Assembly: GCA_965116795.1 (NCBI GenBank) | Contig: OZ220716.1 | Location: forward strand, 1,226,503 to 1,290,502 | Length of the DNA: 64,000 nucleotides | Source of the DNA: Gammaproteobacteria bacterium | Lineage (GTDB): Bacteria > Pseudomonadota > Gammaproteobacteria > JAJFKG01 | Direction of reading: 5' to 3' | Part shown: in pieces, positions 22,768 through 38,936 of the stretch | Position numbering within the stretch: the stretch's first letter is position 1 | Layout: the number at the start of each line of letters is the position of its first letter | Notes under the pieces: model-generated | Told to the model about the DNA's origin: nothing | Seen by the model: the letters and a program-made list of their open reading frames with translations, nothing else | The model's database searches: none | Position numbers and translations under genes: made by a program

Positions 22768-23505
22768 TGAGCGCCATTGCACCCGTGGTCGTGGCTGATG
22801 ACGATGCATCGACATTCTGTTTTAGGCTTATCTTGTATTGGAAAAGGCTCGTTATTGCATGAGTGTAAGGTAATCTCTATAATCTCGTGCAGCTTATCTC
22901 ATTTGCCAAACAAGTGGCCGAGGATACGTTAAGGCAGGTAGTCTTTGCGAGATACAGCAAAGCGTGATAGGTCGATAGGGTTATGTCATTATCCTATCCA
23001 GTAACGTAACGCTTTAAAGCCCAATCAAGTACAATCTAATCACATAACAAGATAACAATACAAGTATAATAAATAACGCTAATAACAAATGTAGTGTTGC
23101 TGCGCTAAGGAAAGATAAGGTAGTCGAACAAGGAGATGTCTGTGTTGATAATATGTTGGTTATGCGCTGCAAACAGAATTATTCCTGGCTTTTCTCAACG
23201 TGGCAACGTAAGGTGTGTGATTAATCCTTGCTGCTATTCGTCGTTACCTATTCTTCAATTGTTTCATCGCCTGATTTTGTTAATACCGCTTGTCTGTGTC
23301 ACAGTGGTTTTTCGTGTGTTATGTGGCGGCGTTTTTCCAAGCGAAATGGCTTTGAAGGTCGTTGGAGTGGCTAGGTGGTGTAGTTAAATATTGCGTGTGT
23401 GATTTTAGTTGGCGCTTGTCTAACCCGCTGTCCTTTGTTAATCACAGGTACAGGTTTTAAGGTTGATTTTTTTGTTTTGGTTTGGTTAAGGGAGTTAGAA
23501 AGAAA

Positions 23506-26500
23506 ATGTTTAAGGGAAGTAAGAAAGGGGTAGGTGATAGAGAATTGGCTGAGAAAGCAGAGAAGTGGTTAGATACCTGCGAGGGGGGGCATTCGGGTGA
23601 GATTCATGCTTTGGCGGTGCTTCCTAATGGGTTAGTGGTCAGTGGGGGTGTAGATGCCACGATTCAGTGTTGGCAGGTAGCTGAGGGGGAGAAGGTGAAG
23701 TACTTAATGCACTTAGCTGCCTGGGAAACGCATTGTTCGGTTTATGCCTTGGCGGTGCTTCCTAATGGGTTGGTGGTTAGTGGGGGTGCTGGTAAAACGA
23801 TTCAGTGTTGGCAGGTGGGGGGTGATGGGAAGGCACAGTACTTAGCTACCTGGGAGGGGCATTCGTGGCGTGTTTATGCCTTGGCGGTGCTTCCTAATAG
23901 GTTGGTGGTTAGTGGGAGTGGTGATAAAACGATTAAGTGTTGGCAGGTAGGAGAGGAGGGCAAGGCGAGATGCTTAGCTACCTGGGAGGGGCATTTGGGT
24001 GAGATTCGTGCTTTGGCGGTGCTTCCTAATGGGTTGGTGGTCAGTGTGGGTTTTGGAGAGATTAAGTGTTGGCAGGTGGGGGATGATGGGAAGGCACAGT
24101 GCTTAGCTACCTCGAAAACGCATTCGAATAAGATTTATGCTTTGGCGGTGCTTCCTAATGGGTTAGTGGTCAGTGGGGGTTTTGGAGAGACTAAGTGTTG
24201 GCAGGTGGGGGATGATGGGAAGGCGCAGTGCTTAGCTACCTGGGAAGGGCATAGGGATAGGGTTACAGCCTTGGCGGTGCTTCCTAATGGGCTAGTGGTC
24301 AGTGGTGGATATATGGATGACCTAATTGAGTGTTGGCAGGTAGGGGATGATGGGAAGGCACAGCAGTTAGACTCTTGGTTCGGCGGTTATTTTTCTTATA
24401 CTGTTGATGCCTTGGCGGCGCTTCCTAATGGGTTAGTGGTCAGTGGGAGTAGTAGAAGTTATAGTTCAGCAGGAGAGCTTAGGTGTTGGCAGGGGGTGTT
24501 TGCGCCGGTGGTGGAATTACAACAACGAGCGGAAGACAGAGAGGCGTTTGCTCAGTACCAATTAGGGTTAGCGTATTACACGGGGCGGCCGGGCGAAGGG
24601 GTTGAGCAAGATATGGGCAAAGCCGTTGATTGGTGGCAGTTAGCGGCAGGGCAAGGGTTTGCTAAAGCCCAACAGCGATTGCAAGAAGCGCAGGAGAGTA
24701 TGTCTCAGCTAGCACCTGCTTCACCACAAGATAACGTCTGGCAATGCTTAAAAATACAACGACAGGCGAGGAAACAAGACAGCGTAATTGAGAAAGGTAA
24801 GATGATTGAAGAGGATACAGCAGCGGTTGATTTGCCTGCGTCAAGCTTTCTTTCAGTCTCAGACAGTGACGGAGCTGTGATTGAATCTGGGATGATGTGC
24901 GAAGTCAACGGCCACGTTGATGAGGGTATCAGTGCGCCTGGTGGTGTGGGTGTCGGTAGTGCTGAATTGATGATTGAGGCAGATTTGAAATTAGTGCCTT
25001 CTTCTGATGTGAGCCAATGGCAAATGACGTTAACCGCCTATCAGTTAACCTGTTTGTTAGGAGCTTGGCATAGTGAGCTCGTCGCGTGTGTCAACGCGTT
25101 AGGGGTGTTCAGTGCGGATACCGATACTCTGTTGCAAGTGGATAAGCACAGTAGAGCGCTCGCTGAGCTGTATGCCTTAATGAAACAGTCTGCTACTGTA
25201 GATGTCCATGTCTACAGCGTATTGATGAAGGTATTAGGGCGGTGCGTGCCGGTGTATCAGTTGGTGGGTAGTGATGATGGTGTTGAGGCAGTGTTGCTGC
25301 GTTTAGAGCAGGTCGCCTTATTAGTGCACCAAGCCATCGACGTTGTTGGGCAGGCCCATTGGTTGCTACGCCATCAGGTGTTGAGGCGGCTGCAGGTGAT
25401 AGCCAGTGAGTATGCGGTTGTCAGCAAGCTAATAGCTGAGAGTGGTGACGTTGCCCTGCGCCGTTACCAAGGCCGTGCCAGTATCGCGGTATTGGGAGAG
25501 GGGTATTATCACGCCCCGGTTGCAGTGGCACGTCAGTTGTTATGTGTCGATGAAATGGGCAAGGAAGTCAAAGCTAATCAAGCAGGTTCGCATGCGGTGG
25601 TGGCGTTAAATGGGGTGCATTATAAACCCAACAGTAAAGCGGAGTTTCCGATTAACCCGGGGAAAGAGCATGCGGTCAGCAGCCTGATGCAGTTAATCGC
25701 GGGACAATCCTTAGCAGCGGCTCCGAGTACGTTGCTGAGTGTGAGTAACGTACCGATTCAAGCTCAAGGCAAAGAGAAACAGATGACGATGACCGGTAAC
25801 CTAGTGCAAGGGGGGTTAACGGTTACCGGGATGTGCTTTAAGGACTTCATTGAATGTCGTGAGGCGCTGGCCAGTTGGCAAGCGCGGTTATCAACAAAGA
25901 CCATTATTGCTTTGCTTGAAGATGCACAATGCGGGTTTCAGAAAGCATTGATGGTGGCTAAGCAAGCATACCCGTCCGTATTTGGCGCAGTAGATATGAG
26001 TGTCGAGTCTGAGCGTGCTGCGTTGAGTGAGCGTTTGCGCGAAGCCTTTGAATCAGTGTGTGCCGGTAAAGCGGTTGAGGCACAGTTACGCGACATAGCC
26101 GAATCAGCAGGCAGGCCTGAGGCTAATCGAGGCAGGATATTTCGTGGGTTGTTTGAAAGTTTCTTGAGTGCCGGTGGCACAGTGGATGCGTTACGTGCGC
26201 TGTTAGGGGTGATAGGTCAAACGCCTGAGCTAATGGCAGGCAATGATATTGCAGGACTGTTGCAGCAGTTCAAGCAGGCTAAGCGGATTGTTAAGTTGCT
26301 GCCCAATACGCCATTAGCCAACGCCTTAGCGATAGTGCCACAGTTATTAACCGAACGTTACCTGGATACCGAAGCGATGAGTGCGCTATGGATTGGATTG
26401 TTGTTAACGATACCGTGTGATGGCAAGTTTGATAACTTCATGTTGCAGTTAGACTATGGGGCTGATAAGCAATTACAACGCTGTCGGATTGTGGCAATTG

Positions 26501-29500
26501 ACAATGATTTAAGTTTAAAGATGCCCTTTAGTGTCAATGAAGAAGGGCAGTTATCGCTCGAGTTAAAGAACCTGCTTATTGTGTTACCGGAGCTGATGAA
26601 CTTGCCCATTCACCCAGCCGTGCGTAGACATTGTTTATCATTATCGCCAGAAGGATGGTACTTAACTTGGTTAAGTGTGTTGGCTAAAGGTGACAGTGAT
26701 TATCAGCAGTGGTTAGCGCAAGGCACCGTGAGTGAGACAGCGCTGAAAGCCATTGATATCCCAGTGCAGTTAAAGAGCCAAGTGTGGCAGTTTATCAAAA
26801 CTCGCTGGCAAGAGTTGCATACGCTGTTGCAAAGTGATGCCAAGGTCACCTTGGGGCAGTGTTTTACCAAGCTCTATCCGTTAGTGGATAAGGCCTATCA
26901 GGGATTAACCCAGTTAGACAGTCCACTGCCTGGCCCGTTAGCGGCAGAGGCTAATCTGTATCAATTCTTCAAGATAGGCGGCAGTTGTCCGGTCGAGCGG
27001 TTATTGCCAAAGGGGTGGCCAGATGAGTTAGCGCAAACTCAGTGTGCGGATAAAGCAAGTCCTGTCATCAGTGCTAACCAGCAAGTGATGCAGGAAGTCG
27101 TGCAACTAGATTGGGCGAAGATAGCACCGTCTGAGCAGTGGCCGAGGGTCGAAGCGTTATCGTTGTTGCCGGGGTTAACGCTACAAGACTGGCAAGGGAT
27201 GACTGAAGAGCACATCACATCCCGATTACAAGGGTGGTTTCGCGACGCGGTAGGTCGAGGACGTCCGTTTGTGGCGCAGCGGTTGTTGGACTTAGGCGCC
27301 AGTGTGAGTTTGCCCGATGAGAGTGAAAATACGGCGCTGCATCAATTCTGTGCCAGTTACTTAAATTACGAAGACAGTGAGACGGTACGATTGATGAGTC
27401 ACGTATTATTGTCTCATCACAGCTGTCAGCCGAATCAATACAATGCGTCGGGGTATACGCCGTTATTGCAATGGGTGAATGTAACACCCGAGCCTGAACA
27501 GTTAACCCCAGCCCAATTGAACAGTGCGTCGGTATTGCTAGAGGTGCTACTCATCCATGGCGCCAACCTTGAAGCCAAGGATGCATTCAAACATGAGACG
27601 GCCTTGGATAAGACGATGAAACAGGGCCGAGAGAAGTGGCATTGGTTTGAGGTGTTAGTGAATAAAGGGGCTGGGGTGCACGCCAATGGCGAGGTGATAG
27701 TCAAACGCCTGCATGAATCTGGGATACTGGCAAAGCGTCCTGCACTGCAAGCGGCTTTGAAGCAATTAACCGAGCTTAATCTAAGCGTAGCGTGGACACT
27801 GAGTCAACAAGTCTGGCAGTCATCCAGTGGCAAGCAGAGCAAGTCTGCCATCGTGGTAAACGGCAGTCGTTGCGGGGAAGTAGTGTTACCACAAGCAATA
27901 GCTAAGGGATTACTCACTGACAAACAGGTGTTTAACGTCAAAGGGGAGACTACCGACTATGGGCGACGAGTGGTTAAAGCCATTGAGCACGATAACGCCA
28001 AGTGGCATGTTAAAGAGAACCCGGAGATGCCTGGGATTGAAATGGCAGTGGGAGCGCTGAGTCGGTTATTGTTTGGCGAACACACCGCTCCCAATGAAGT
28101 GTTTTCGTTTTTCGATGTTAAGGGGGTTGGCTATCCGGTGCTCATCTCCCAGACGGTGCAGGGAGCTAACTTACAAACGGTGTTAAATGACCCTAAGAAA
28201 GCACATACCCATGAGGTGTTACAACAACTCCACCCTCAATACACATCCGAGCAAATTATCTTAGCGATGTTGGTGCATCCAGAAGATGGTAAGCCGGATA
28301 ACTACCAGTTGTTGGAGATGAAAACGACCCGGCCCGATGGCAAGGACAGCACGCAGTATCGACTCATTGGGATTGACAATGACCATGCGTTTGTCAAGCC
28401 GGTGATGATAGAAAAAGGGCATCGCAAATTGCAAGTCAAATGTGTGTTGTTTTGCTTAGATACGATGCGCCGACCAGTACACCTGGCAGTGAGGCAACGT
28501 TTATTGCATTTAAATCCTGTCACGTTCTTAGAGAGTTGGTTAGACCAGTTGATTGCATACCATGAAGGCTCGATGAAGTTGTTTGATAAGAAAGCCCGTC
28601 AGCGGTTGTTTAAAGTGAAGACCGACTTAAAACAGTTAGCCCGCAAAGTCGCCTTGCGTGAAGTGCGAGAACGCTTGCCGGTGGTGGTAACAGTGCCGTT
28701 TCGCGATGGCGCGATAACCGAACTCTGGGACAGGTTGGTGCGGATGCAAGACGCCTTACGGGATAACCCCATGATAACGCATTTACAATTGTTAAAAGCC
28801 ATCACGCCAAGTTTAGGGATGATATATGACGAAGCCTTTGAAGTGCATGAAGAGCCATTTGAAGTGGCTGAGCGGTTTCATGAAGTGGCCAATACCCATT
28901 ACTCGACAGCGATTGCAGGTCGTTATGCGACGTTAACCACTAGCCGTCAAGCACTGGAAGCCGCCGGGTTTTCGGATAAAGAGCAAAAAGCGTTATTAGA
29001 AGAAGGAGATAAGAGCGCGAGCTTCACCCCACGCCATGCGTTATTTCAATTACGTCAAGGGGTAGAGCAAAAGGCGAAGATAGCGACAACCATCGACAGG
29101 TTAGCGAAGGGGGATATGTCTGTGTTTGAACAAATCCTCTCTGAGCAAGTCAAAGAGGATGTGGTTAATCGGTTAGACTTTAGTAAGATGCTAATCGCAG
29201 GCGGTAAGCAACCAGACATAGCTAAGCAGAAGGCGATATTGAAATTGATTATCAATGAGCAAATCGCATTTCATACGTTATCCATTCGTCACTGCGGCGC
29301 ATTAACCGACGATATGTTGATATCGCTGTTAAAGAATGCACCGGAGCTTAGTCGGTTGACGTTAATAGATTGTCCGCAGCTCACAGATAAGTTGGGTAAG
29401 ACCATCGAAAAACTCACCCCGAACGTAACAACGTTGACCTTAAGGCAATTGCCAAACCTTGAAGGATTAGGTAACAAAGTCGTGGCAAGAGGAGCCAATC

Positions 29501-30705
29501 AAGATAATAGTTATGACCCAATTAATCTGCCACACTTACGCCGAGTAAACATCAGTGACAATCTTCAATTATGTGCGATTGCGGTTCAATCACGCGCATT
29601 AACATTGGCAACAACCAAGCATAACCCGCTACTTGCGGAGTTAACGTTGTTCTGTGAAGGGCTCAAGGCATTGGATGTGAGTGGTTGTGCACAATTGACT
29701 GATAAGGGCTTACAAAACACGTTACAGTCATATCAAGCCTTACCAAGATTGAACGTAGATAACTGTGCGGCGATAAATACTGAGTTATGGCATTGTGTGG
29801 CATATGTTAGTCAACAGGCGGTATCGGTGTTCCCACAATGGAACTTGAAAACCTGGAAGCAAGCTGGGTTGTTATTGTTGCCGTATGCCTCTGATAGGGT
29901 GGTGCAGATTGATAGCGGTGCGATTGAACCTAATCAACTGACTGTGGTGATGGGGTTAGTGGCCTCTAATCCGGGTGCACACACGGTGCTAGTGACTGTC
30001 TCACCAAAGTCCGTAGCTACTGTATTGAATCCACTGCTCGCATTATTAAAAAACAACACCGCTATAGCGGCACTGTGTATCACCGGCGCTTCGCTCGATA
30101 ACATGATGGCAGAACACATGATACTGGCTGTTGCCACATGTGGAAATCTTCATACCGTAGCGCTGACGGTGGATAACAGCCAAGCGGCCATTGCTCAATT
30201 GCAACAGGTGACGCAGTTAACCCAAGTGATGGTCAATGGAGTGAATGTGACATCGCTATTGCAAGCAGACAAAGCTACAAATGGAGTGGCGATTGTTAAT
30301 GATGCAAGTGGGCAACAGGCGATGAGTGTGGATGTGTTGGCATTAGCGATGCAGCATGAATCATCAGCAATACGTCAATCAGCGGCCAATACGTTAGCGT
30401 TGCTCAGTGCGGCTGGGAAATTGCCGGAATGCAAACAACGTATCGCTGAATTATTATCTGGCGAAAATCCAACGCTATTAACGGTACAACACGCTGAATC
30501 AGTGAACTCATCTTCTTCTGTTTCCATAGTGGCTAGCAGTTCATCATCGGCAGCGTTAATTAGTCAGTTCAGTGGTATTGCTCAACAGCAGGCAGGTGAG
30601 GTTATCAAAGAGAAAGAGCGGGAAAAAGAAGAGGCGAGCGATAGTGATGATGAACATACTAATGTGGCTAAATCTTCGCAGCAAATAGCTATGAGGCTTG
30701 GGTAA
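23506..30705 (+). CDS. Giant eukaryote-like multidomain protein (WD40 x7, SEL1, two atypical kinase-like domains, ankyrin, LRR); candidate effector
   Basis: Seven ALAVLPNGLVVSG repeats; AQYQLGLAY..GVEQDM..A..W SEL1; two DGK.DN...IDND segments; NTALH/GYTPL/ETALD ankyrins; LDVSGCAQLTDKGL LRRs; acidic C-terminus. Confidence 0.85.
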   Translation: MFKGSKKGVGDRELAEKAEKWLDTCEGGHSGEIHALAVLPNGLVVSGGVDATIQCWQVAEGEKVKYLMHLAAWETHCSVYALAVLPNGLVVSGGAGKTIQCWQVGGDGKAQYLATWEGHSWRVYALAVLPNRLVVSGSGDKTIKCWQVGEEGKARCLATWEGHLGEIRALAVLPNGLVVSVGFGEIKCWQVGDDGKAQCLATSKTHSNKIYALAVLPNGLVVSGGFGETKCWQVGDDGKAQCLATWEGHRDRVTALAVLPNGLVVSGGYMDDLIECWQVGDDGKAQQLDSWFGGYFSYTVDALAALPNGLVVSGSSRSYSSAGELRCWQGVFAPVVELQQRAEDREAFAQYQLGLAYYTGRPGEGVEQDMGKAVDWWQLAAGQGFAKAQQRLQEAQESMSQLAPASPQDNVWQCLKIQRQARKQDSVIEKGKMIEEDTAAVDLPASSFLSVSDSDGAVIESGMMCEVNGHVDEGISAPGGVGVGSAELMIEADLKLVPSSDVSQWQMTLTAYQLTCLLGAWHSELVACVNALGVFSADTDTLLQVDKHSRALAELYALMKQSATVDVHVYSVLMKVLGRCVPVYQLVGSDDGVEAVLLRLEQVALLVHQAIDVVGQAHWLLRHQVLRRLQVIASEYAVVSKLIAESGDVALRRYQGRASIAVLGEGYYHAPVAVARQLLCVDEMGKEVKANQAGSHAVVALNGVHYKPNSKAEFPINPGKEHAVSSLMQLIAGQSLAAAPSTLLSVSNVPIQAQGKEKQMTMTGNLVQGGLTVTGMCFKDFIECREALASWQARLSTKTIIALLEDAQCGFQKALMVAKQAYPSVFGAVDMSVESERAALSERLREAFESVCAGKAVEAQLRDIAESAGRPEANRGRIFRGLFESFLSAGGTVDALRALLGVIGQTPELMAGNDIAGLLQQFKQAKRIVKLLPNTPLANALAIVPQLLTERYLDTEAMSALWIGLLLTIPCDGKFDNFMLQLDYGADKQLQRCRIVAIDNDLSLKMPFSVNEEGQLSLELKNLLIVLPELMNLPIHPAVRRHCLSLSPEGWYLTWLSVLAKGDSDYQQWLAQGTVSETALKAIDIPVQLKSQVWQFIKTRWQELHTLLQSDAKVTLGQCFTKLYPLVDKAYQGLTQLDSPLPGPLAAEANLYQFFKIGGSCPVERLLPKGWPDELAQTQCADKASPVISANQQVMQEVVQLDWAKIAPSEQWPRVEALSLLPGLTLQDWQGMTEEHITSRLQGWFRDAVGRGRPFVAQRLLDLGASVSLPDESENTALHQFCASYLNYEDSETVRLMSHVLLSHHSCQPNQYNASGYTPLLQWVNVTPEPEQLTPAQLNSASVLLEVLLIHGANLEAKDAFKHETALDKTMKQGREKWHWFEVLVNKGAGVHANGEVIVKRLHESGILAKRPALQAALKQLTELNLSVAWTLSQQVWQSSSGKQSKSAIVVNGSRCGEVVLPQAIAKGLLTDKQVFNVKGETTDYGRRVVKAIEHDNAKWHVKENPEMPGIEMAVGALSRLLFGEHTAPNEVFSFFDVKGVGYPVLISQTVQGANLQTVLNDPKKAHTHEVLQQLHPQYTSEQIILAMLVHPEDGKPDNYQLLEMKTTRPDGKDSTQYRLIGIDNDHAFVKPVMIEKGHRKLQVKCVLFCLDTMRRPVHLAVRQRLLHLNPVTFLESWLDQLIAYHEGSMKLFDKKARQRLFKVKTDLKQLARKVALREVRERLPVVVTVPFRDGAITELWDRLVRMQDALRDNPMITHLQLLKAITPSLGMIYDEAFEVHEEPFEVAERFHEVANTHYSTAIAGRYATLTTSRQALEAAGFSDKEQKALLEEGDKSASFTPRHALFQLRQGVEQKAKIATTIDRLAKGDMSVFEQILSEQVKEDVVNRLDFSKMLIAGGKQPDIAKQKAILKLIINEQIAFHTLSIRHCGALTDDMLISLLKNAPELSRLTLIDCPQLTDKLGKTIEKLTPNVTTLTLRQLPNLEGLGNKVVARGANQDNSYDPINLPHLRRVNISDNLQLCAIAVQSRALTLATTKHNPLLAELTLFCEGLKALDVSGCAQLTDKGLQNTLQSYQALPRLNVDNCAAINTELWHCVAYVSQQAVSVFPQWNLKTWKQAGLLLLPYASDRVVQIDSGAIEPNQLTVVMGLVASNPGAHTVLVTVSPKSVATVLNPLLALLKNNTAIAALCITGASLDNMMAEHMILAVATCGNLHTVALTVDNSQAAIAQLQQVTQLTQVMVNGVNVTSLLQADKATNGVAIVNDASGQQAMSVDVLALAMQHESSAIRQSAANTLALLSAAGKLPECKQRIAELLSGENPTLLTVQHAESVNSSSSVSIVASSSSSAALISQFSGIAQQQAGEVIKEKEREKEEASDSDDEHTNVAKSSQQIAMRLG
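23581..24492 (+). repeat. Seven near-identical ~129-141 bp WD40-coding repeats
   Basis: TTGGCGG(T/C)GCTTCCTAAT(G/A)GG and TGTTGGCAGG each recur seven times. Confidence 0.93.
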
Positions 30706-30838
30706 AAGTGTTTGAAATGCCAGCGTGCTGCCGAGTGCTTTCTGTTGCGTCACTATAGAATATGCCTCACAAGCTCTGTATCTGAGATTTAGTGAGCTTT
30801 GTTCTCGCATTATGGCGATAGATTGAGTATAATTGGGT

Positions 30839-31713
30839 GTGCGCCACGAGGCGCTGTGTTAGCTAGTGGTTGAAAGTACCGCCGGTGAAGTGGAGCCCAC
30901 CACACACCGTACTGAGTCTTGGGCGAGCTGTGGTAACACAGTTGGTTAAGCGTAGATAGGGAGATATTAGGCCGTAGGCATAAGCCGAAGTGATTGAGCC
31001 TCGTAATATACTTCTTTGGAGTGGTCGATGGTGTACTCAAGCCAGAAGACAACATTGTACATGACGAAAATGGGAAGCCATGTGCAATACTCCCGGGGTC
31101 GGAGAGCATGGCATGATATTAAAGCAATACAGTGAACGTGGGAGATCCTGATTATTCGCAAAGGAAAGCGTATTAGGCAACAAGCGTAAAAGCAAGGCGT
31201 CTGAAAAGATAACCAGGAAGTCAGAGGAGGCATACTATTGAAGAAGATGGGTAATGCCATTGGAGAGAAGGCCTCCAGGCAAGCAACACCTTGAGAGGGA
31301 AACGTGATGAGAACAGCAGATTCTCAATTAACAACGGCAACGCAACTTGAGAGGATAGCTTGGTTGTCCGCGCAAGATAAGATGAAGATATTTAGCAATT
31401 AATGCGGGATGTCAAAGTCGATTACTTGCGGGCATGTTACCCCCTGTTGGATGGAAGACAGCAACAGGAGTAAGTGGGATGACAAAGGAGCAATATGATA
31501 AACGAGTTTATCATCGGCTTTTTTTGAGTTCACAATCGGTGAAACGGAGTTTGTCGTGAGCCCATTGCCTTAATAGGGCACGATGTGGATCTAACGAGGG
31601 GCTGGGGTACAAGTGAACTATGAGCAAGATAATTTGACACCATCGTAGGAAACGAGATGGAAACAGTGAAAACGAACTTTGCTCTAAGGTGTACGAGGAA
31701 CCAGTCTACTCAC
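30839..31713 (+). ncRNA. ORF-less group II intron (IIB-like, 875 nt)
   Basis: 5' GTGCG; EBS1 ACTCAA (31035-31040) pairs with IBS1 TTGGGT; EBS2 TATACT (31007-31012) pairs with IBS2 AGTATA; domain V with AGC triad at ~31558-31591; 3' end CTACTCAC; no RT ORF. Confidence 0.9.
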
Positions 31714-31737
31714 TCAATTGTGAGAGAAGGGGTTTCA

Positions 31738-31824
31738 ATGACAACGCGGTATCTGAATCCGAAAAACGACTTGATTTTCGTGCAGTGGGAGGTTGGCCTA
31801 AAGCCTCAGATTTCGACAAGTTGA
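31738..31824 (+). pseudogene. N-terminal remnant of an Rpn-family (PD-(D/E)XK) nuclease
   Basis: MTTRYLNPKNDLIF resembles the family start motif (L)DPKND..F; purine-rich RBS; stops after 28 aa. Confidence 0.55.
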
Positions 31825-31882
31825 TGTAGAAGTGTTACGCTTTAAACTTTAGCACTGATTAATGATGCGGAGGTAAATCGCT

Positions 31883-32104
31883 ATGACAGCCAAGAATCCA
31901 CGAGTGAATGTGACATTTGATGAGAAAGCAGCAGGATTACTGGCTGAGCTTGCTGAGCAAGAGGATAAGTCGCTGTCGAGTTTGGTTCGAGAATTGGCTT
32001 TAGAGGCACTCGAAATGCGGGAAGATTTCTACTTGGCTAAAATAGCCAGCCAGTTGGATAAAAAAGGTGCTAAAATATGTGGGCATGCTAAGGCATGGAA
32101 ATAA
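31883..32104 (+). CDS. RHH/CopG-type antitoxin
   Basis: RVNVTF..L..LAE.EDKSLSSLVRE ribbon-helix-helix; overlaps the toxin start. Confidence 0.85.
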   Translation: MTAKNPRVNVTFDEKAAGLLAELAEQEDKSLSSLVRELALEALEMREDFYLAKIASQLDKKGAKICGHAKAWK

Positions 32105-32364
32105 CCTATGAAATAAAATACCTAGAAGAGGTAGTCAAAAAACATATTCCTAAACTGTCCTCACCAGCGAAGATACTCATTAAACGAACCATTGAAGAAC
32201 GGTTGATGGCGGATCCGATTCGTTTTGGAAAGCCGCTGCGCTATAGTCTCAAGGGACACAGGCGCTTGCGAGTGGGTAACTACCGTGTAGTTTATCGTGC
32301 TGATCCGCTAACAGCTATCGTGACGGTTGTTGCAATTAAGCATAGGAAAGAAATCTATGAATAA
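32095..32364 (+). CDS. relE: RelE/ParE-family toxin
   Basis: GKPLRYSLKGHRRLRVGNYRVVY and HRKEIY motifs. Confidence 0.9.
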   Translation: MEITYEIKYLEEVVKKHIPKLSSPAKILIKRTIEERLMADPIRFGKPLRYSLKGHRRLRVGNYRVVYRADPLTAIVTVVAIKHRKEIYE

Positions 32365-32461
32365 GTGTCGTGTGCGCAGTGAGGAGGGCTTAGACCCCGA
32401 TATGGTCACAAAAGCAACAGGCCTGCCTGTGGATAAGTTTGATGAACCTACTGAAGAGTAG
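32357..32461 (+). CDS. 34-aa ORF resembling an Rpn C-terminal tail
   Basis: EGLDPDMVTKATGLPVDK resembles the Rpn C-terminal G.D.E.I.K.TGLS motif; overlaps the toxin stop. Confidence 0.45.
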   Translation: MNKCRVRSEEGLDPDMVTKATGLPVDKFDEPTEE

Positions 32462-32995
32462 GTAAAAACATCATTAAAATCATGATGTTATGAAAAAGGC
32501 ATTTTTAGCAATTTTATGGTGCACTACTTTCTATGGCACGCCACTAACCATTTTCTAACCTTTCTGTAACCAAATCCGCCATCCAGAAAAGCCTTAGTAA
32601 TACAAAGGTTTTTTGGCATAACGCCATGACTTCGAAACACCTAATTTTGGCGATTTTTCGTGATTTTTCCTCCTAATATCGCCAATCCTCTGAAAAGTCC
32701 GTACTTTAGCAAACGAAGTACGGAGACATTAAGTCATGATGTTGTAGGGATTTGTCGCCGTACTAGTTCGAACTTGAAAGTGGGGGCGCATGGACAGTAA
32801 TGCGCTACTTTTGTGTGTACGGCAATTAAAAGCGTAGGTTCACTAATGTGCTTGAATTTCTAGAATAGTCCCTTGTTCTTGGACAGCACATCTATACGTG
32901 GGCGTTATCTTGTTGTTACAACTTACCGTTATTTGGCTGAAGCAGCGGCTAGAGGGTTGCAAGATAATTGAACATGACAAAAATTTTAAGAAGAA

Positions 32996-35833: not shown

Positions 35834-36226
35834 TTATTCCTGCCAAATAGTCAGCCGGATAATCAATTTTCTAATAGCCGCTTTCCACTTGCGCCAAGCT
35901 GTGATTTTATCACAACCCATTTCACGTGCGATAGCTTTCCAGTGGATATGGTCAGCACGTCGCCATAGCAGTTTACGCTCATCAACCGTTAACCAGTGCA
36001 TCCAATCAAACACTCGCTCAAGGGAGGCTAACATTTCCGGTGTCGGTGGTAAGCGTAATCGCTTTGGCTCTGTATTAGCAATTTCGGTAGGCGAGCGTAC
36101 TATCTCAGGCCACGTGTGAACATACCCATTACTTTGCAACGGCGGTAATCGTCGTATTGTGATTACCGCACGCTCCAACTCATTAATAATCGCTTCTTCT
36201 GTCCATTTACGTTGTGTCATCATCAT
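35834..36226 (-). CDS. Phage HTH protein (DUF6362-like, possible late regulator)
   Basis: WPEIVR, W..WL...ERKLLW.RA and C-terminal HTH. Confidence 0.65.
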   Translation of the reverse strand: MMMTQRKWTEEAIINELERAVITIRRLPPLQSNGYVHTWPEIVRSPTEIANTEPKRLRLPPTPEMLASLERVFDWMHWLTVDERKLLWRRADHIHWKAIAREMGCDKITAWRKWKAAIRKLIIRLTIWQE

Positions 36227-36747
36227 GTTAATTGCTTTGCTTTTTTCAAATCAAATTGCGCATGTGCATAATGTAACAAGGCAATGGCATCAGCTTGATT
36301 ATCATCTTCTGGGTTATGTCCCAATGCATGTACTGCGGCTATAACAGCGGCTTTGTTTGCATTGCCTTTACCGGTAATGAATTTTTTAATTGTGCCAACG
36401 GGCACACCTTGATACGCAATGTTTTCTCGTTCACACCAACTGGTTAGCGTACTTAAGAAACCCCCGTAAACATGTGCGGCATCAACACCTAAGTGACGCC
36501 TCACTTCTTCGAAATACACTGCATCGATATGTTCCATGACAGCATGTGTTTCTTCTAGCCACTGACAAAAACGCAAGTAACGCATGCCACCACCTTCAAA
36601 ACGCCGTGGTTGAAAAGACAGGGTACCGCTGATGATGTGTGCATTGTGATTGGTAACTGCCCAGCCCGTTGTTGTGCCTAAGTCTAGACACAACAGGGCA
36701 GGAGATTTATTCTCAACATTAGTTTTGTTTGATTTCATCTTCATCAT
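36223..36747 (-). CDS. RuvC-like Holliday junction resolvase
   Basis: LDLGTTTGWA, FEEVRRH, VGTIKK..TGKGNA.K and DNQADA motifs. Confidence 0.85.
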   Translation of the reverse strand: MMKMKSNKTNVENKSPALLCLDLGTTTGWAVTNHNAHIISGTLSFQPRRFEGGGMRYLRFCQWLEETHAVMEHIDAVYFEEVRRHLGVDAAHVYGGFLSTLTSWCERENIAYQGVPVGTIKKFITGKGNANKAAVIAAVHALGHNPEDDNQADAIALLHYAHAQFDLKKAKQLT

Positions 36748-36758
36748 ATTTCCTTCCT

Positions 36759-38936
36759 CTAATTAGCATCCCAGATAAACTTATCTTTAACAGGCAGCGC
36801 AGCGGCTGTTTGCTTGCATTTGTAATGCGTTGGATAAACTGGTTGCAGTGTGACTGTGGTTTCACCGGTAGTGGAGTTAACCTGTGATTTACCATTAGGA
36901 ACGTGCATGCCTTCCACACACAAGAATCCAAACTTGGTGCGCAGTGGCGTGTTTCCTCTATACAACGTGGTATCTTTGGAGAACTTGATATCGCCGCGTG
37001 TGGCTAACACATTTAAGCGATTGCGAATGGTCTCTGTACTCCCTAACCCCGATTTATTTTCAAATGCTTCACTGAACTGATTAATCGTATACAATTTTCC
37101 TAAGCGTGCTTCTTCATGAATGAGCTGCAAAATGATATTCTGCTTACGCTTTCGTTCAGCATCTAACTTGCGTGCGTATTTGTCTTTGACAATCCGTTGT
37201 GTACTGGTATCTACTTCATGCCACTGCTCGTTGGCTTTGTCGATGCATTTGGGTTTAATTTCTTTACCATTACGCAATTCAAACACGAGTTTTCTAGGTG
37301 AGAGTTGCTCATCTTCTTTAAACAACACCAACCCAGTGCTGTAATACCCACGCAAACTGCTGGCACCCGATAGCGCTTGAAACGGGTCTTCGGTCAATTC
37401 TCTTTTTCGAAGCTTGCGGGTATGATGTGCTAGAATAATACCTGCATCAGGATTCAATGCTGCACGTAAGGTATCTAATCGTTTGGTTAAGAAAAACAAC
37501 ATACCATTGTTTCTATTCTCATCATTTTCATCATCACCCCCATCAAACACATTACGCAGTGGGTCAATGACAATAATATCTACCTTCTCATCAGGAAAAT
37601 AATGGCGTATGGTTCGTTGTGCTTGATATGTCCCTTGTTTGTTTAGTAGGACATTTAGTTGAGGCGTAATAACTAAGTTTTTGCTGATAAGCTGTCGTGC
37701 CGTGTCATCAAAACTCAGTCGATGTGAACGTTCACGTAAGTAGTGATAGCCAACTTCTGTTTGCAAATAGAAAATTCTCAAAGGACGTGGGGGCGTTAAC
37801 CCAAGAAACGGAATGCCCGCTGCCATGTGAGAGAGCAGTGATAACAAGAAATCACTTTTCCCCACTTTCGGCGCCCCCGCTAACACCATTAACCCCCCTG
37901 GCGTTAATACCCGTGGTGCAATGAGGTCAATTGGCATTGGAGAGGTATCGTCAAGTAATTGCCTCATGGTGTAGGCTGGTAGTAATGGTATAATGGACTC
38001 GGGTGGCTGCATGTTGTTGTCAATAAAGGCATGTACATCGGCTCCTTGTGCAACCGCATCCGCCGCATCCCACTTGTCGGGTTTATCTTCTGGAATGGTT
38101 AAAATACTTAAGGATGATAACAACCCTGATGTTGCCAAATGCTCACTGACCGCTTTAGCATAGCGACGCCCTGCTTCATCATTATCTGGCCAGATAACAA
38201 CGTGTTTGCCTGTTAGTGGTGACCAATCCGTTTTACTGATAGTGGTTTTAGCACCAAACATGGCGGTAGTGGCAGTAATCCCTTGCTTGATGAGAGCATC
38301 AGCGGCTTTTTCTCCTTCAACCAATACCACTTGGCCAGCGTTTTTAATACCAGGTTGATTGTAGAGTGGGCGAGGATTGGGTGCGCAATGTTTACGGTTT
38401 ACCACATCCCACGGACGGTATTGCTTGCCATCTTCAGTGTCATAACGATACACACACGCAATTAACTGTCCATTATCATCTATATAATCCCACTTTGCAG
38501 TCGGTATGCCTAATGTATCATAGCCACACGAAGGTGATAGGGTATTAGCAGAATCAGTTGGCGTTAGCCCCAACCAATCACTTGCAGATTGCAGCACTTG
38601 TTTAAATTGGGTTTTAGTGTCTAACCCATGACGTGCTGCCCACAACTCAAAGATGTCGCCACCTTCGTTTGTTGCAAAGTCGTGCCAGAGTCCGGCTTTA
38701 CTGCCGGTAATCTCAATCTTTAAACTGTCACCTGGGCTACCATGAATATCCCCAACTTCATACGTGTTATTGTGTAGATGTCCATTAGGTAGCAAATATA
38801 CTAATACCGTTTCCAGTTGTGATAACAATCCACTACGCACTCTATCAGTTGAAAGGGCATGATGATGTGGTTGTTGTGATGTTGCGTTGTTTGCATTTAA
38901 ATATGTAATTGACATGCGTGTTTCTCCTATTTCCAT
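36759..38936 (-). CDS. Primase-helicase (Toprim + AAA_25/RepA-like)
   Basis: VEGEKAAD and WPDND Toprim motifs; GAPKVGKS Walker A; IVIDP; HHTRK. Confidence 0.88.
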   Translation of the reverse strand: MEIGETRMSITYLNANNATSQQPHHHALSTDRVRSGLLSQLETVLVYLLPNGHLHNNTYEVGDIHGSPGDSLKIEITGSKAGLWHDFATNEGGDIFELWAARHGLDTKTQFKQVLQSASDWLGLTPTDSANTLSPSCGYDTLGIPTAKWDYIDDNGQLIACVYRYDTEDGKQYRPWDVVNRKHCAPNPRPLYNQPGIKNAGQVVLVEGEKAADALIKQGITATTAMFGAKTTISKTDWSPLTGKHVVIWPDNDEAGRRYAKAVSEHLATSGLLSSLSILTIPEDKPDKWDAADAVAQGADVHAFIDNNMQPPESIIPLLPAYTMRQLLDDTSPMPIDLIAPRVLTPGGLMVLAGAPKVGKSDFLLSLLSHMAAGIPFLGLTPPRPLRIFYLQTEVGYHYLRERSHRLSFDDTARQLISKNLVITPQLNVLLNKQGTYQAQRTIRHYFPDEKVDIIVIDPLRNVFDGGDDENDENRNNGMLFFLTKRLDTLRAALNPDAGIILAHHTRKLRKRELTEDPFQALSGASSLRGYYSTGLVLFKEDEQLSPRKLVFELRNGKEIKPKCIDKANEQWHEVDTSTQRIVKDKYARKLDAERKRKQNIILQLIHEEARLGKLYTINQFSEAFENKSGLGSTETIRNRLNVLATRGDIKFSKDTTLYRGNTPLRTKFGFLCVEGMHVPNGKSQVNSTTGETTVTLQPVYPTHYKCKQTAAALPVKDKFIWDAN

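What the first reader, a model, noticed from the sequence alone, without database searches (positions are those of the whole stretch)
30826..31713. ORF-less group II intron whose guide sequences read a -10 promoter box
The 5' flank is AGTATA-A-TTGGGT|GTGCG. EBS2 TATACT and EBS1 ACTCAA pair fully with it (one G-U), so the recognised target contains a perfect TATAAT (30828-30833). The intron starts 6 nt later, about where a sigma-70 transcript would start, and ends 24 nt before the Rpn-remnant ATG. Domain IV is short, with only an RBS/ATG vestige and no RT. Inference: a non-autonomous intron that homes to promoter/TSS positions, sparing coding sequence and capturing a promoter. Transcripts from that promoter would have essentially no 5' exon, implying unusual (linear or read-through-dependent) splicing and a trans-acting maturase.
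Basis: partly seen in the sequence, partly recalled or inferred. Interest (0 to 1): 0.75.

Follow-up and report, generated by a model that had tools for sequence, protein, structure and literature searches.

The report
Enzyme-less intron lodged at a promoter
A self-splicing-type intron that lost its enzyme gene sits right behind a conserved, likely real promoter box, but its five sister copies and its close relatives sit at unrelated sites, so this is likely a one-off landing by a family that keeps changing its guide sequences, not an element that homes to promoters.

Summary
The intron is real: class-E-like group II, 30839-31714 (876 nt, one base longer than reported; ligated junction TTGGGT|CAATTG). 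EBS2 and EBS1 pair 12 of 12 with a flank holding TATAAT. That box is probably a true promoter: four intron-free Rpn paralogues keep it with C-A at the predicted -1/+1, so the intron sits at about -2/-1. It became ORF-less by an internal RT deletion. The genome holds four identical ORF-less sisters and an RT-encoding parent, the likely trans maturase. These carry other EBS sets and sit in an IS110 gene, repeats and a prophage-like unit. Promoter homing is not supported: TATAAT lies at 1 of 47 flanks of this clade (the window itself), and only 5 of 1498 genomic TATAAT sites fully match EBS1. This parallels the known Thermosynechococcus pattern of EBS divergence among ORF-less introns. A distant Bacillota clade (RT 36-39% identical) does insert 10-11 nt behind extended -10 boxes (9 of 15 flanks); earlier scan notes describe similar lineages. 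No RNA data were available, so TSS and splicing are untested.

The parts
23482..30705 (+). 2407-aa WD40-repeat ORF ending 133 nt upstream; likely source of read-through transcripts that carry a full 5' exon
   Evidence: no + strand terminator found in 30600-32500
30804..30809 (+). weak -35 candidate CTCGCA (3 of 6, 18-nt spacer); similarity to two Rpn paralogues begins here
   Evidence: hits start at 30803 and 30804
30823..30828 (+). second perfect EBS1 complement TTGAGT, a possible cryptic 5' splice site on read-through RNA
   Evidence: sequence; use inferred
30826..30831 (+). IBS2 AGTATA
30828..30833 (+). -10 box TATAAT of the Rpn-family promoter, kept in 4 of 4 intron-free paralogues
30833..30838 (+). 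IBS1 TTGGGT
30839..31714 (+). ORF-less class-E-like group II intron, 876 nt, GUGCG...ACUCACU
30896..30899 (+). alpha (CCCA), complementary to alpha' TGGG at 31071-31074 in a terminal stem-loop
   Evidence: sequence
31007..31012 (+). EBS2 TATACT (differs from the sisters TTTGCT and TTTTTG)
31035..31040 (+). EBS1 ACTCAA (sisters GCCTTA and GTTCGG)
31223..31223 (+). gamma A in J2/3, partner of the terminal U at 31714
31307..31527 (+). RT ORF remnant: frameshifted N-terminus joined near 31497-31500 to the last codons; same deletion as in the four sisters
31558..31591 (+). domain V: AGC triad, CG bulge, 5-nt UAAUA loop; private change at 31589 turns the G-U wobble into G-A
   Evidence: same variant in ORF-bearing relatives L009 and L011
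31596..31714 (+). unusually long domain VI (about 120 nt) with bulged branch A at 31708; holds an SD-like element and ATG (31657) in frame with the Rpn start
   Evidence: z -2.4
31715..31779 (+). 3' exon: Rpn leader and 14-codon Rpn (PF12784) remnant, ATG at 31738
31883..32364 (+). RelB-like antitoxin and ParE/RelE-like toxin pair, standing where the rest of Rpn would be

Best explanation
This is an ORF-less copy of a class-E-like group II intron family whose copies carry three different guide (EBS) sets, and this copy likely landed by ordinary base-pair-guided retrohoming, probably helped in trans by the RT-encoding parent, at a 13-nt site that happens to be the likely promoter/leader of a repeated Rpn gene. 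Shown: boundaries, the RT deletion shared with four sisters, three EBS sets that each match their own flanks, the intact parent RT, and the conserved Rpn promoter sequence. Inferred: trans mobilisation; reverse splicing into single-stranded DNA at the replication fork, since the RT has no endonuclease domain; insertion at about -2/-1 of the Rpn TSS. Inferred consequence: RNA from the Rpn promoter would start at intron nt 1-3, lack IBS1 and not cis-splice, so any splicing of this copy would depend on read-through from the upstream 7.2-kb gene. The Rpn copy is now a 14-codon remnant, so the insertion likely costs the host little.
For: Six copies fall into three EBS/IBS sets that co-vary with their flanks. 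The four identical sisters (0 differences in 877 nt) sit in an IS110 transposase gene, antisense in another coding sequence, and in two copies of a dispersed repeat; the parent follows a tape-measure gene; none has TATAAT. The parent RT is 433 aa, TIGR04416 314.5 bits over the 300 cut-off, Pfam RVT_1 only. In this clade a perfect TATAAT 4-7 nt upstream occurs at 1 of 47 non-redundant flanks (the window), and a 5-of-6 match within 4-12 nt at 3 of 47 (background 3.7%, p 0.25). Of 10 genomic sites that pair fully with this EBS set, 2 contain TATAAT (this site and one Rpn paralogue, which is empty); 5 of 1498 TATAAT sites give 6 of 6 IBS1 pairs. Private changes keep or improve helices (31603/31703, 31059/31083), so the lineage was long functional. 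The same pattern of one ORF deletion, EBS divergence into families and trans-acting IEPs is reported for T. elongatus (PMC2882425). ORF-less bacterial introns nearly always co-occur with a related IEP (PMC4424553).
Against: Only one copy of this EBS variant exists, so its site preference cannot be measured directly. Its only occupied site is a promoter, one of 2 such among 10 full matches, which fits a mild bias to promoter DNA. A sister class-E clade is promoter-associated, so the tendency exists in the class. Trans mobilisation and read-through splicing are untested.
Confidence: 0.72

Rival explanations
1. One reading: this EBS variant is specialised to home to sigma-70 -10/TSS positions and so captures promoters.
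For: 12 of 12 pairing over a site that includes TATA of the -10 box; insertion at about -2/-1 of a conserved promoter. A sister clade shows promoter-proximal insertion at 9 of 15 flanks, and in the L301-type intron the EBS2 loop UUAUGUUG is complementary to the whole box plus 2 nt. Host RpoD regions 2.2-2.4 match a solved RpoD nearly letter for letter.
Against: No second copy. EBS1, the element that matters for class E splicing in vitro (PMC3753933), reads TTGGGT, which is not promoter consensus; only 5 of 1498 TATAAT sites fit it fully. The equally good Rpn paralogue site is empty. The other 46 flanks of its clade lack a perfect TATAAT within 4-12 nt. The geometry (5-nt gap, no exon) differs from the sister clade (10-11 nt, 4-5-nt exon).
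Confidence: 0.1
2. EBS-guided as in the best explanation, but with a physical bias: endonuclease-less RNPs reverse-splice more easily into AT-rich or RNA-polymerase-opened promoter DNA, so among matching sites a promoter is favoured.
For: The occupied site is 1 of 2 TATAAT-containing sites among 10 full matches. The paired region spans the stretch that an open complex melts (established knowledge, recalled). The sister clade keeps a fixed -10 distance even where EBS2 pairing is weak (S-clade EBS2 mean 5.27 against a permuted maximum of 5.27).
Against: No excess of -10-like hexamers in the 47 flanks of the own clade. 5 of 6 copies are co-oriented with the replication fork, which fits the known fork route, though not significant and their targets share that orientation. 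No paper on this was found.
Confidence: 0.12
3. The TATAAT is not a functional promoter, and the intron simply sits in a non-coding repeat.
For: The -35 is poor and the consensus scan does not call it. TATAAT is not enriched over its permutations in 799 upstream regions (81 sense, 70 antisense, rank 15 of 20). The divergent Rpn of G002 lacks it.
Against: 4 of 4 paralogues keep TATAAT and C-A at the canonical -1/+1 while three of the bases between vary, and their similarity starts at the -35 position or up to 31 nt upstream of it. 42 of 81 upstream TATAAT lie 15-59 nt before an ATG. Paralogues share ancestry, so this is not independent proof.
Confidence: 0.15

Closest known systems
ORF-less TeI3 introns of Thermosynechococcus elongatus (Mohr, Ghanem, Lambowitz 2010, PMC2882425; passages and section 10 read)
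   Same: One shared ORF deletion leaving N- and C-terminal remnants; families defined by diverged EBS sets; good EBS/IBS pairing at the sites; insertion in IS elements and intergenic DNA; a related IEP available in trans.
   Different: Those are CL/IIB1 introns with an En domain and 28 copies; here a class-E-like, En-minus family of 6. Trans activity was shown there and is only inferred here. One copy here sits at a predicted TSS.
Bacterial class E (IIE) group II introns, e.g. Cl.be.I2 (Nagy et al. 2013, PMC3753933; parts 1, 2 and 4 of 7 read)
   Same: 5-nt domain V loop, alpha' in a terminal stem-loop, EBS1 plus EBS2, En-minus RT. The IIE introns tested spliced only by hydrolysis in vitro, so a linear intron would not be special to this copy.
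   Different: Domain VI of about 120 nt, a CU rather than AY terminus, and no ORF. RT not compared with named class E references.
Context-specialised lineages: IIC (terminators, attC) and the IIB1 clade at start/stop codons (as described in PMC12584367 introduction and PMC4424553 passages; Michel et al. 2007 not read)
   Same: The idea of a lineage tied to a gene-expression signal; the distant Bacillota clade found here looks like such a lineage for promoter-proximal positions.
   Different: The window intron's own clade shows no such specialisation (1 of 47 flanks).

Membership tests
Group II intron | Domain I structure, GUGYG 5' end | tested here: met
   RF02005 139 bits; GTGCG at 30839
Group II intron | Domain V with catalytic triad and 2-nt bulge; domain VI with bulged A 7-8 nt from the 3' end | tested here: met
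   RF00029 itself did not reach its cut-off here; G3-U32 wobble changed to G-A
Group II intron | EBS-IBS and gamma-gamma' pairings | tested here: met
Group II intron | Self-splicing activity | not testable with these tools
   needs RNA data or an in vitro assay
Class E (IIE) | 5-nt loop in domain V | tested here: met
   UAAUA loop read from the sequence; feature from PMC3753933
Class E (IIE) | alpha' at the end of a stem-loop in DId | tested here: met
   TGGG 31071-31074 in a terminal loop, complementary to CCCA 30896-30899
Class E (IIE) | IEP without En domain | tested here: met
   parent RT 433 aa, Pfam RVT_1 only
Class E (IIE) | RT groups with named class E references, not F or g1-g4 | not tested
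   no reference sequences obtained; the class E look of the N-terminus is recalled
Class E (IIE) | Additional bulge loop in DId3; EBS3-IBS3 pair | tested here: inconclusive
   no invariant candidate pairs with the differing first 3'-exon bases C, T, G, G, A; bulge not assessed
T. elongatus-type ORF-less families | Shared ORF deletion with remnants; related ORF-bearing intron in the genome; EBS-defined families | tested here: met
T. elongatus-type ORF-less families | Mobilisation by the related IEP in trans | not testable with these tools
   four identical ORF-less copies at distinct sites imply it
Promoter-proximal Bacillota clade (seen here) | RT in that clade; extended -10 box 10-11 nt upstream | tested here: not met
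   own RT in a separate clade (SH-aLRT 99 and 98), 36-39% identity; gap is 5 nt and there is no TGn extension

The most novel reading that the evidence does not exclude
The copy has captured its own promoter: transcription starts at intron nt 1-3 and yields directly the linear intron-3'-exon intermediate that class E introns otherwise reach by hydrolysis. A free 5' exon released from read-through RNA completes the second step in trans, and the parent RT mobilises the product, so step 1 is bypassed. It would be a young, independent instance of the promoter-proximal habit that looks fixed in the distant Bacillota clade (that clade's habit itself is about 0.7 likely on 9 of 15 flanks).
Probability: 0.1. 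Interest if true: 0.78.

Novelty: new member of a known kind. Interest (0 to 1): 0.4.

Why it matters
As it most likely stands, this is a compact natural example of EBS retargeting and ORF loss in a class-E-like family: three guide sets and one driver RT in one genome, useful but of a known kind. It also gives a natural test of what a group II intron does when its promoter leaves it no 5' exon. The stronger lead is outside the window: a Bacillota class-E-like clade at a fixed distance behind extended -10 boxes would be a promoter counterpart to terminator-targeting IIC introns, with 4-5-nt 5' exons. I found no paper on it in six searches, but this scan's earlier notes already describe such lineages.

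Tried and rejected
RNA evidence: no RNA holder listed; the one guessed-RNA run gave 0 laid contigs; neither says anything about expression. Empty allele of this exact locus: none seen in the 8 runs laid; the joints that skip the intron have short sides and fit the paralogous Rpn sites. Low-depth contigs in X6 and X9 carry the same 5' junction with under 31 nt of flank, and one X6 contig shows a close copy with a different, TATAAT-free flank; these are hints only. Relatives: the intron was not found in the 2 other genomes of the family and order. Boundary at 31713, or an intron starting one base earlier: rejected. Dead copy because of the domain V and domain III changes: not supported, since the same variants occur in ORF-bearing relatives and other private changes are compensatory. 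More members of the sister clade: the 14-nt scan of viral contigs gave 1 true hit among 120 loci; searches gave none; the plasmid and phage hits were under 54% identical or belonged to other branches. One search used the wrong strand of L086, so its blank means nothing. Control for the sister clade: 0 of 29 other SD-preceded ORF starts in those loci had an extended -10 box 8-13 nt before the SD end; that set includes intron RT starts and mis-called starts, and two rows show TATAAT without TGn nearby. The careful IQ-TREE run did not finish, so the quick tree is used, and the L015 row was mis-extracted. Supplements of PMC3552965 were listed but not read; one .doc of PMC4028801 could not be read; class E boundary or target notes there could bear on the class label.

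Full report
Observation. The element is a group II intron (Rfam RF02005 at 30873-31108, 139 bits). It begins GTGCG at 30839. TATAAT lies at 30828-30833, and EBS2 (31007-31012) and EBS1 (31035-31040) pair 12 of 12 with AGTATA-A-TTGGGT. The 3' end is one base later than reported. All six copies in the genome end CTCACT. With that end the joined flanks align to intron-free paralogues with no gap at the junction, and the frame of an interrupted IS110 gene is continuous only with it. Contig joints skip a net 876 nt. The branch A falls 7 nt from the end, and gamma pairs with the last base in 16 of 17 introns where both were read (A-U, G-C and C-G; L107 is the miss). The intron is therefore 30839-31714 and ends in CU, not AY.

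Anatomy. Domain IV carries about 64 frameshifted N-terminal RT codons joined to the last RT codons, a deletion of about 1.08 kb shared with the four sisters. Domain V has the AGC triad, a CG bulge and a 5-nt loop; alpha' sits in a terminal loop. The loop and the alpha' position are listed as class E/F traits in PMC3753933. Domain VI is about 120 nt (fold z -2.4), against roughly 35-40 nt in close relatives; the parent shares this. The window copy has 40 private changes against both sister lineages. Several are compensatory (31603/31703, 31059/31083), and two in conserved motifs (31589, 31235) recur in ORF-bearing relatives. The lineage thus looks long functional rather than decayed. The RT was not compared with named class E references, so I call it class-E-like.

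Family in the genome. G000 holds four more ORF-less copies, identical to each other over 877 nt and about 90.6% identical to the window copy, and one 1960-nt copy with a 433-aa RT (TIGR04416 above cut-off, no endonuclease domain found). The three lineages have three EBS sets, each matching its own flanks. The sisters lie in an IS110 gene, antisense in another coding sequence, and in two copies of a dispersed repeat; the parent follows a tape-measure gene. None has TATAAT. Five of six are co-oriented with the replication fork, a weak fit to fork-dependent mobility of En-minus introns (mechanism in PMC4424553).

Is the box a promoter? Probably. The site is the leader of a repeated Rpn gene (PF12784, four other copies). 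All four keep TATAAT, vary in three of the bases that follow, and keep C-A at the canonical -1/+1; for two of them similarity starts at the weak -35 candidate. The host RpoD matches a solved RpoD across the -10-reading region. Against: the -35 is 3 of 6 at best and the scan did not call it; TATAAT is not enriched over its permutations upstream of 799 genes, though 42 of 81 lie 15-59 nt before the ATG; a divergent Rpn in G002 lacks it. If real, the intron sits between -2 and -1, and RNA from this promoter would start at intron nt 1-3 without IBS1 (inference). Read-through from the 2407-aa gene 133 nt upstream is possible, as no + strand terminator was found. The Rpn copy itself stops after 14 codons and is followed by a toxin-antitoxin pair.

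Does it home to promoters? Not on this evidence. Ten genomic sites pair fully with this EBS set; two contain TATAAT, and the second, an Rpn paralogue, is empty. Of 1498 TATAAT sites, five give 6 of 6 IBS1 pairs. I gathered relatives from genome, metagenome and viral contigs. Of 138 oriented loci, 70 had a 5' hit and 43 a readable start with flank. I dropped three from other branches (L018, L022, L025), two with non-canonical 5' ends (L163, L165) and duplicates, and added nine class-search loci and the six own copies. That left 47 non-redundant flanks for the window's clade, assigned by RT tree or 5' similarity. A perfect TATAAT within 4-12 nt occurs in 1 of 47, the window itself, which was picked for it. 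A 5-of-6 match occurs in 3 of 47 (background 3.7%, p 0.25). EBS1 and EBS2 match their own flanks far better than permuted ones across these introns, so targeting is guide-driven and the guides vary freely.

Introns starting GTGCGCCAGTTCGG form a separate RT clade (SH-aLRT 98, quick tree; 36-39% identity to the parent RT); named homologues are from Izemoplasmatales, Lachnospiraceae and other Bacillota. Nine of 15 non-redundant flanks have TGn-TAnnnT ending exactly 10-11 nt upstream, against 0.8% background and 0 of 47 in the window's clade (Fisher p 2.5e-7). The rule was set after seeing five of them. Among the eight found later it held in four, three of which are one intron at different promoters, so the p-value overstates. 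Several insert between the SD and the start codon, others after an ATG. In the L301-type intron the EBS2 loop is complementary to the whole -10 box plus two bases, but EBS2 pairing is not beyond chance for the clade as a whole. Predicted 5' exons are 4-5 nt, unlike the zero-exon case in the window. Six paper searches found no description; the library lacks most subscription journals, and Michel et al. 2007 is known to me only through PMC12584367 (abstract and introduction read). Earlier scan notes describe RBS-, leaderless-start- and promoter-targeting lineages; these are AI notes, and I did not test whether they are this clade.

Comparison with what is known. PMC2882425 (passages and section 10) reports a single ORF deletion with remnants, EBS-defined families and trans-acting driver IEPs in T. 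elongatus, which matches this family point by point except for class. PMC3753933 (parts 1, 2, 4 of 7) reports that the IIE introns tested spliced only by hydrolysis in vitro and did not need EBS2, so linear products would not be special here and EBS1 matters most. PMC3552965 was read in part 2 of 4; of PMC4028801 only one supplement was searched.

Verdict. A real intron with a correctly spotted pairing, a one-base boundary error, and a probable position at a TSS. It is best read as one landing of a retargeted, non-autonomous member of a known kind of family. Promoter homing is not supported for it. No RNA data were available, so the TSS, splicing and trans mobilisation remain untested.

Noticed in passing
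L067, L078, L086, L098, L105, L111 (metagenome); L301-L312 (viral contigs): Distant class-E-like clade inserting 10-11 nt behind extended -10 boxes, often between SD and start codon; domain VI often carries an SD-like element and start codon near the 3' end.
   Followed up: partly
window 31645-31714: The long domain VI holds an SD-like AGGA and an ATG (31657) in frame with the Rpn start; it is out of frame at the IS110 site of a sister, so it may be chance.
   Followed up: partly
window 32490-32550; about 27 sites in G000: Dispersed repeat TTTTAGCA-N8-GTGCAC...TATGGCACGC, often downstream of Rpn copies and near a DnaA-box-like TGTGGATAA; two copies hold sister introns. Possibly a recombination site (guess).
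   Followed up: partly
G000:C1 1320290-1322866, 148562, 1445607 (L001-L005): A second, unrelated group II family: a 532-aa RT and four RF00029 hits, three with the same score, perhaps another set of ORF-less or truncated copies.
   Followed up: no
G000:C1 1804122-1804685 (L007): A third RT-domain ORF (377-aa open frame, weak RVT_1 score), type not examined.
   Followed up: no
L069, L081, L083, L087, L054: Short relatives (about 550-900 nt from start to domain V) suggest ORF-less derivatives recur in this clade.
   Followed up: no
window 35834-38936 (- strand): Prophage-like genes (primase-like, RuvC-like) downstream; similar units seem repeated in the genome.
   Followed up: no
Piscirickettsia salmonis plasmids: 44 plasmid records hold 70%-identical relatives, often several per plasmid; flanks not examined.
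   Followed up: no
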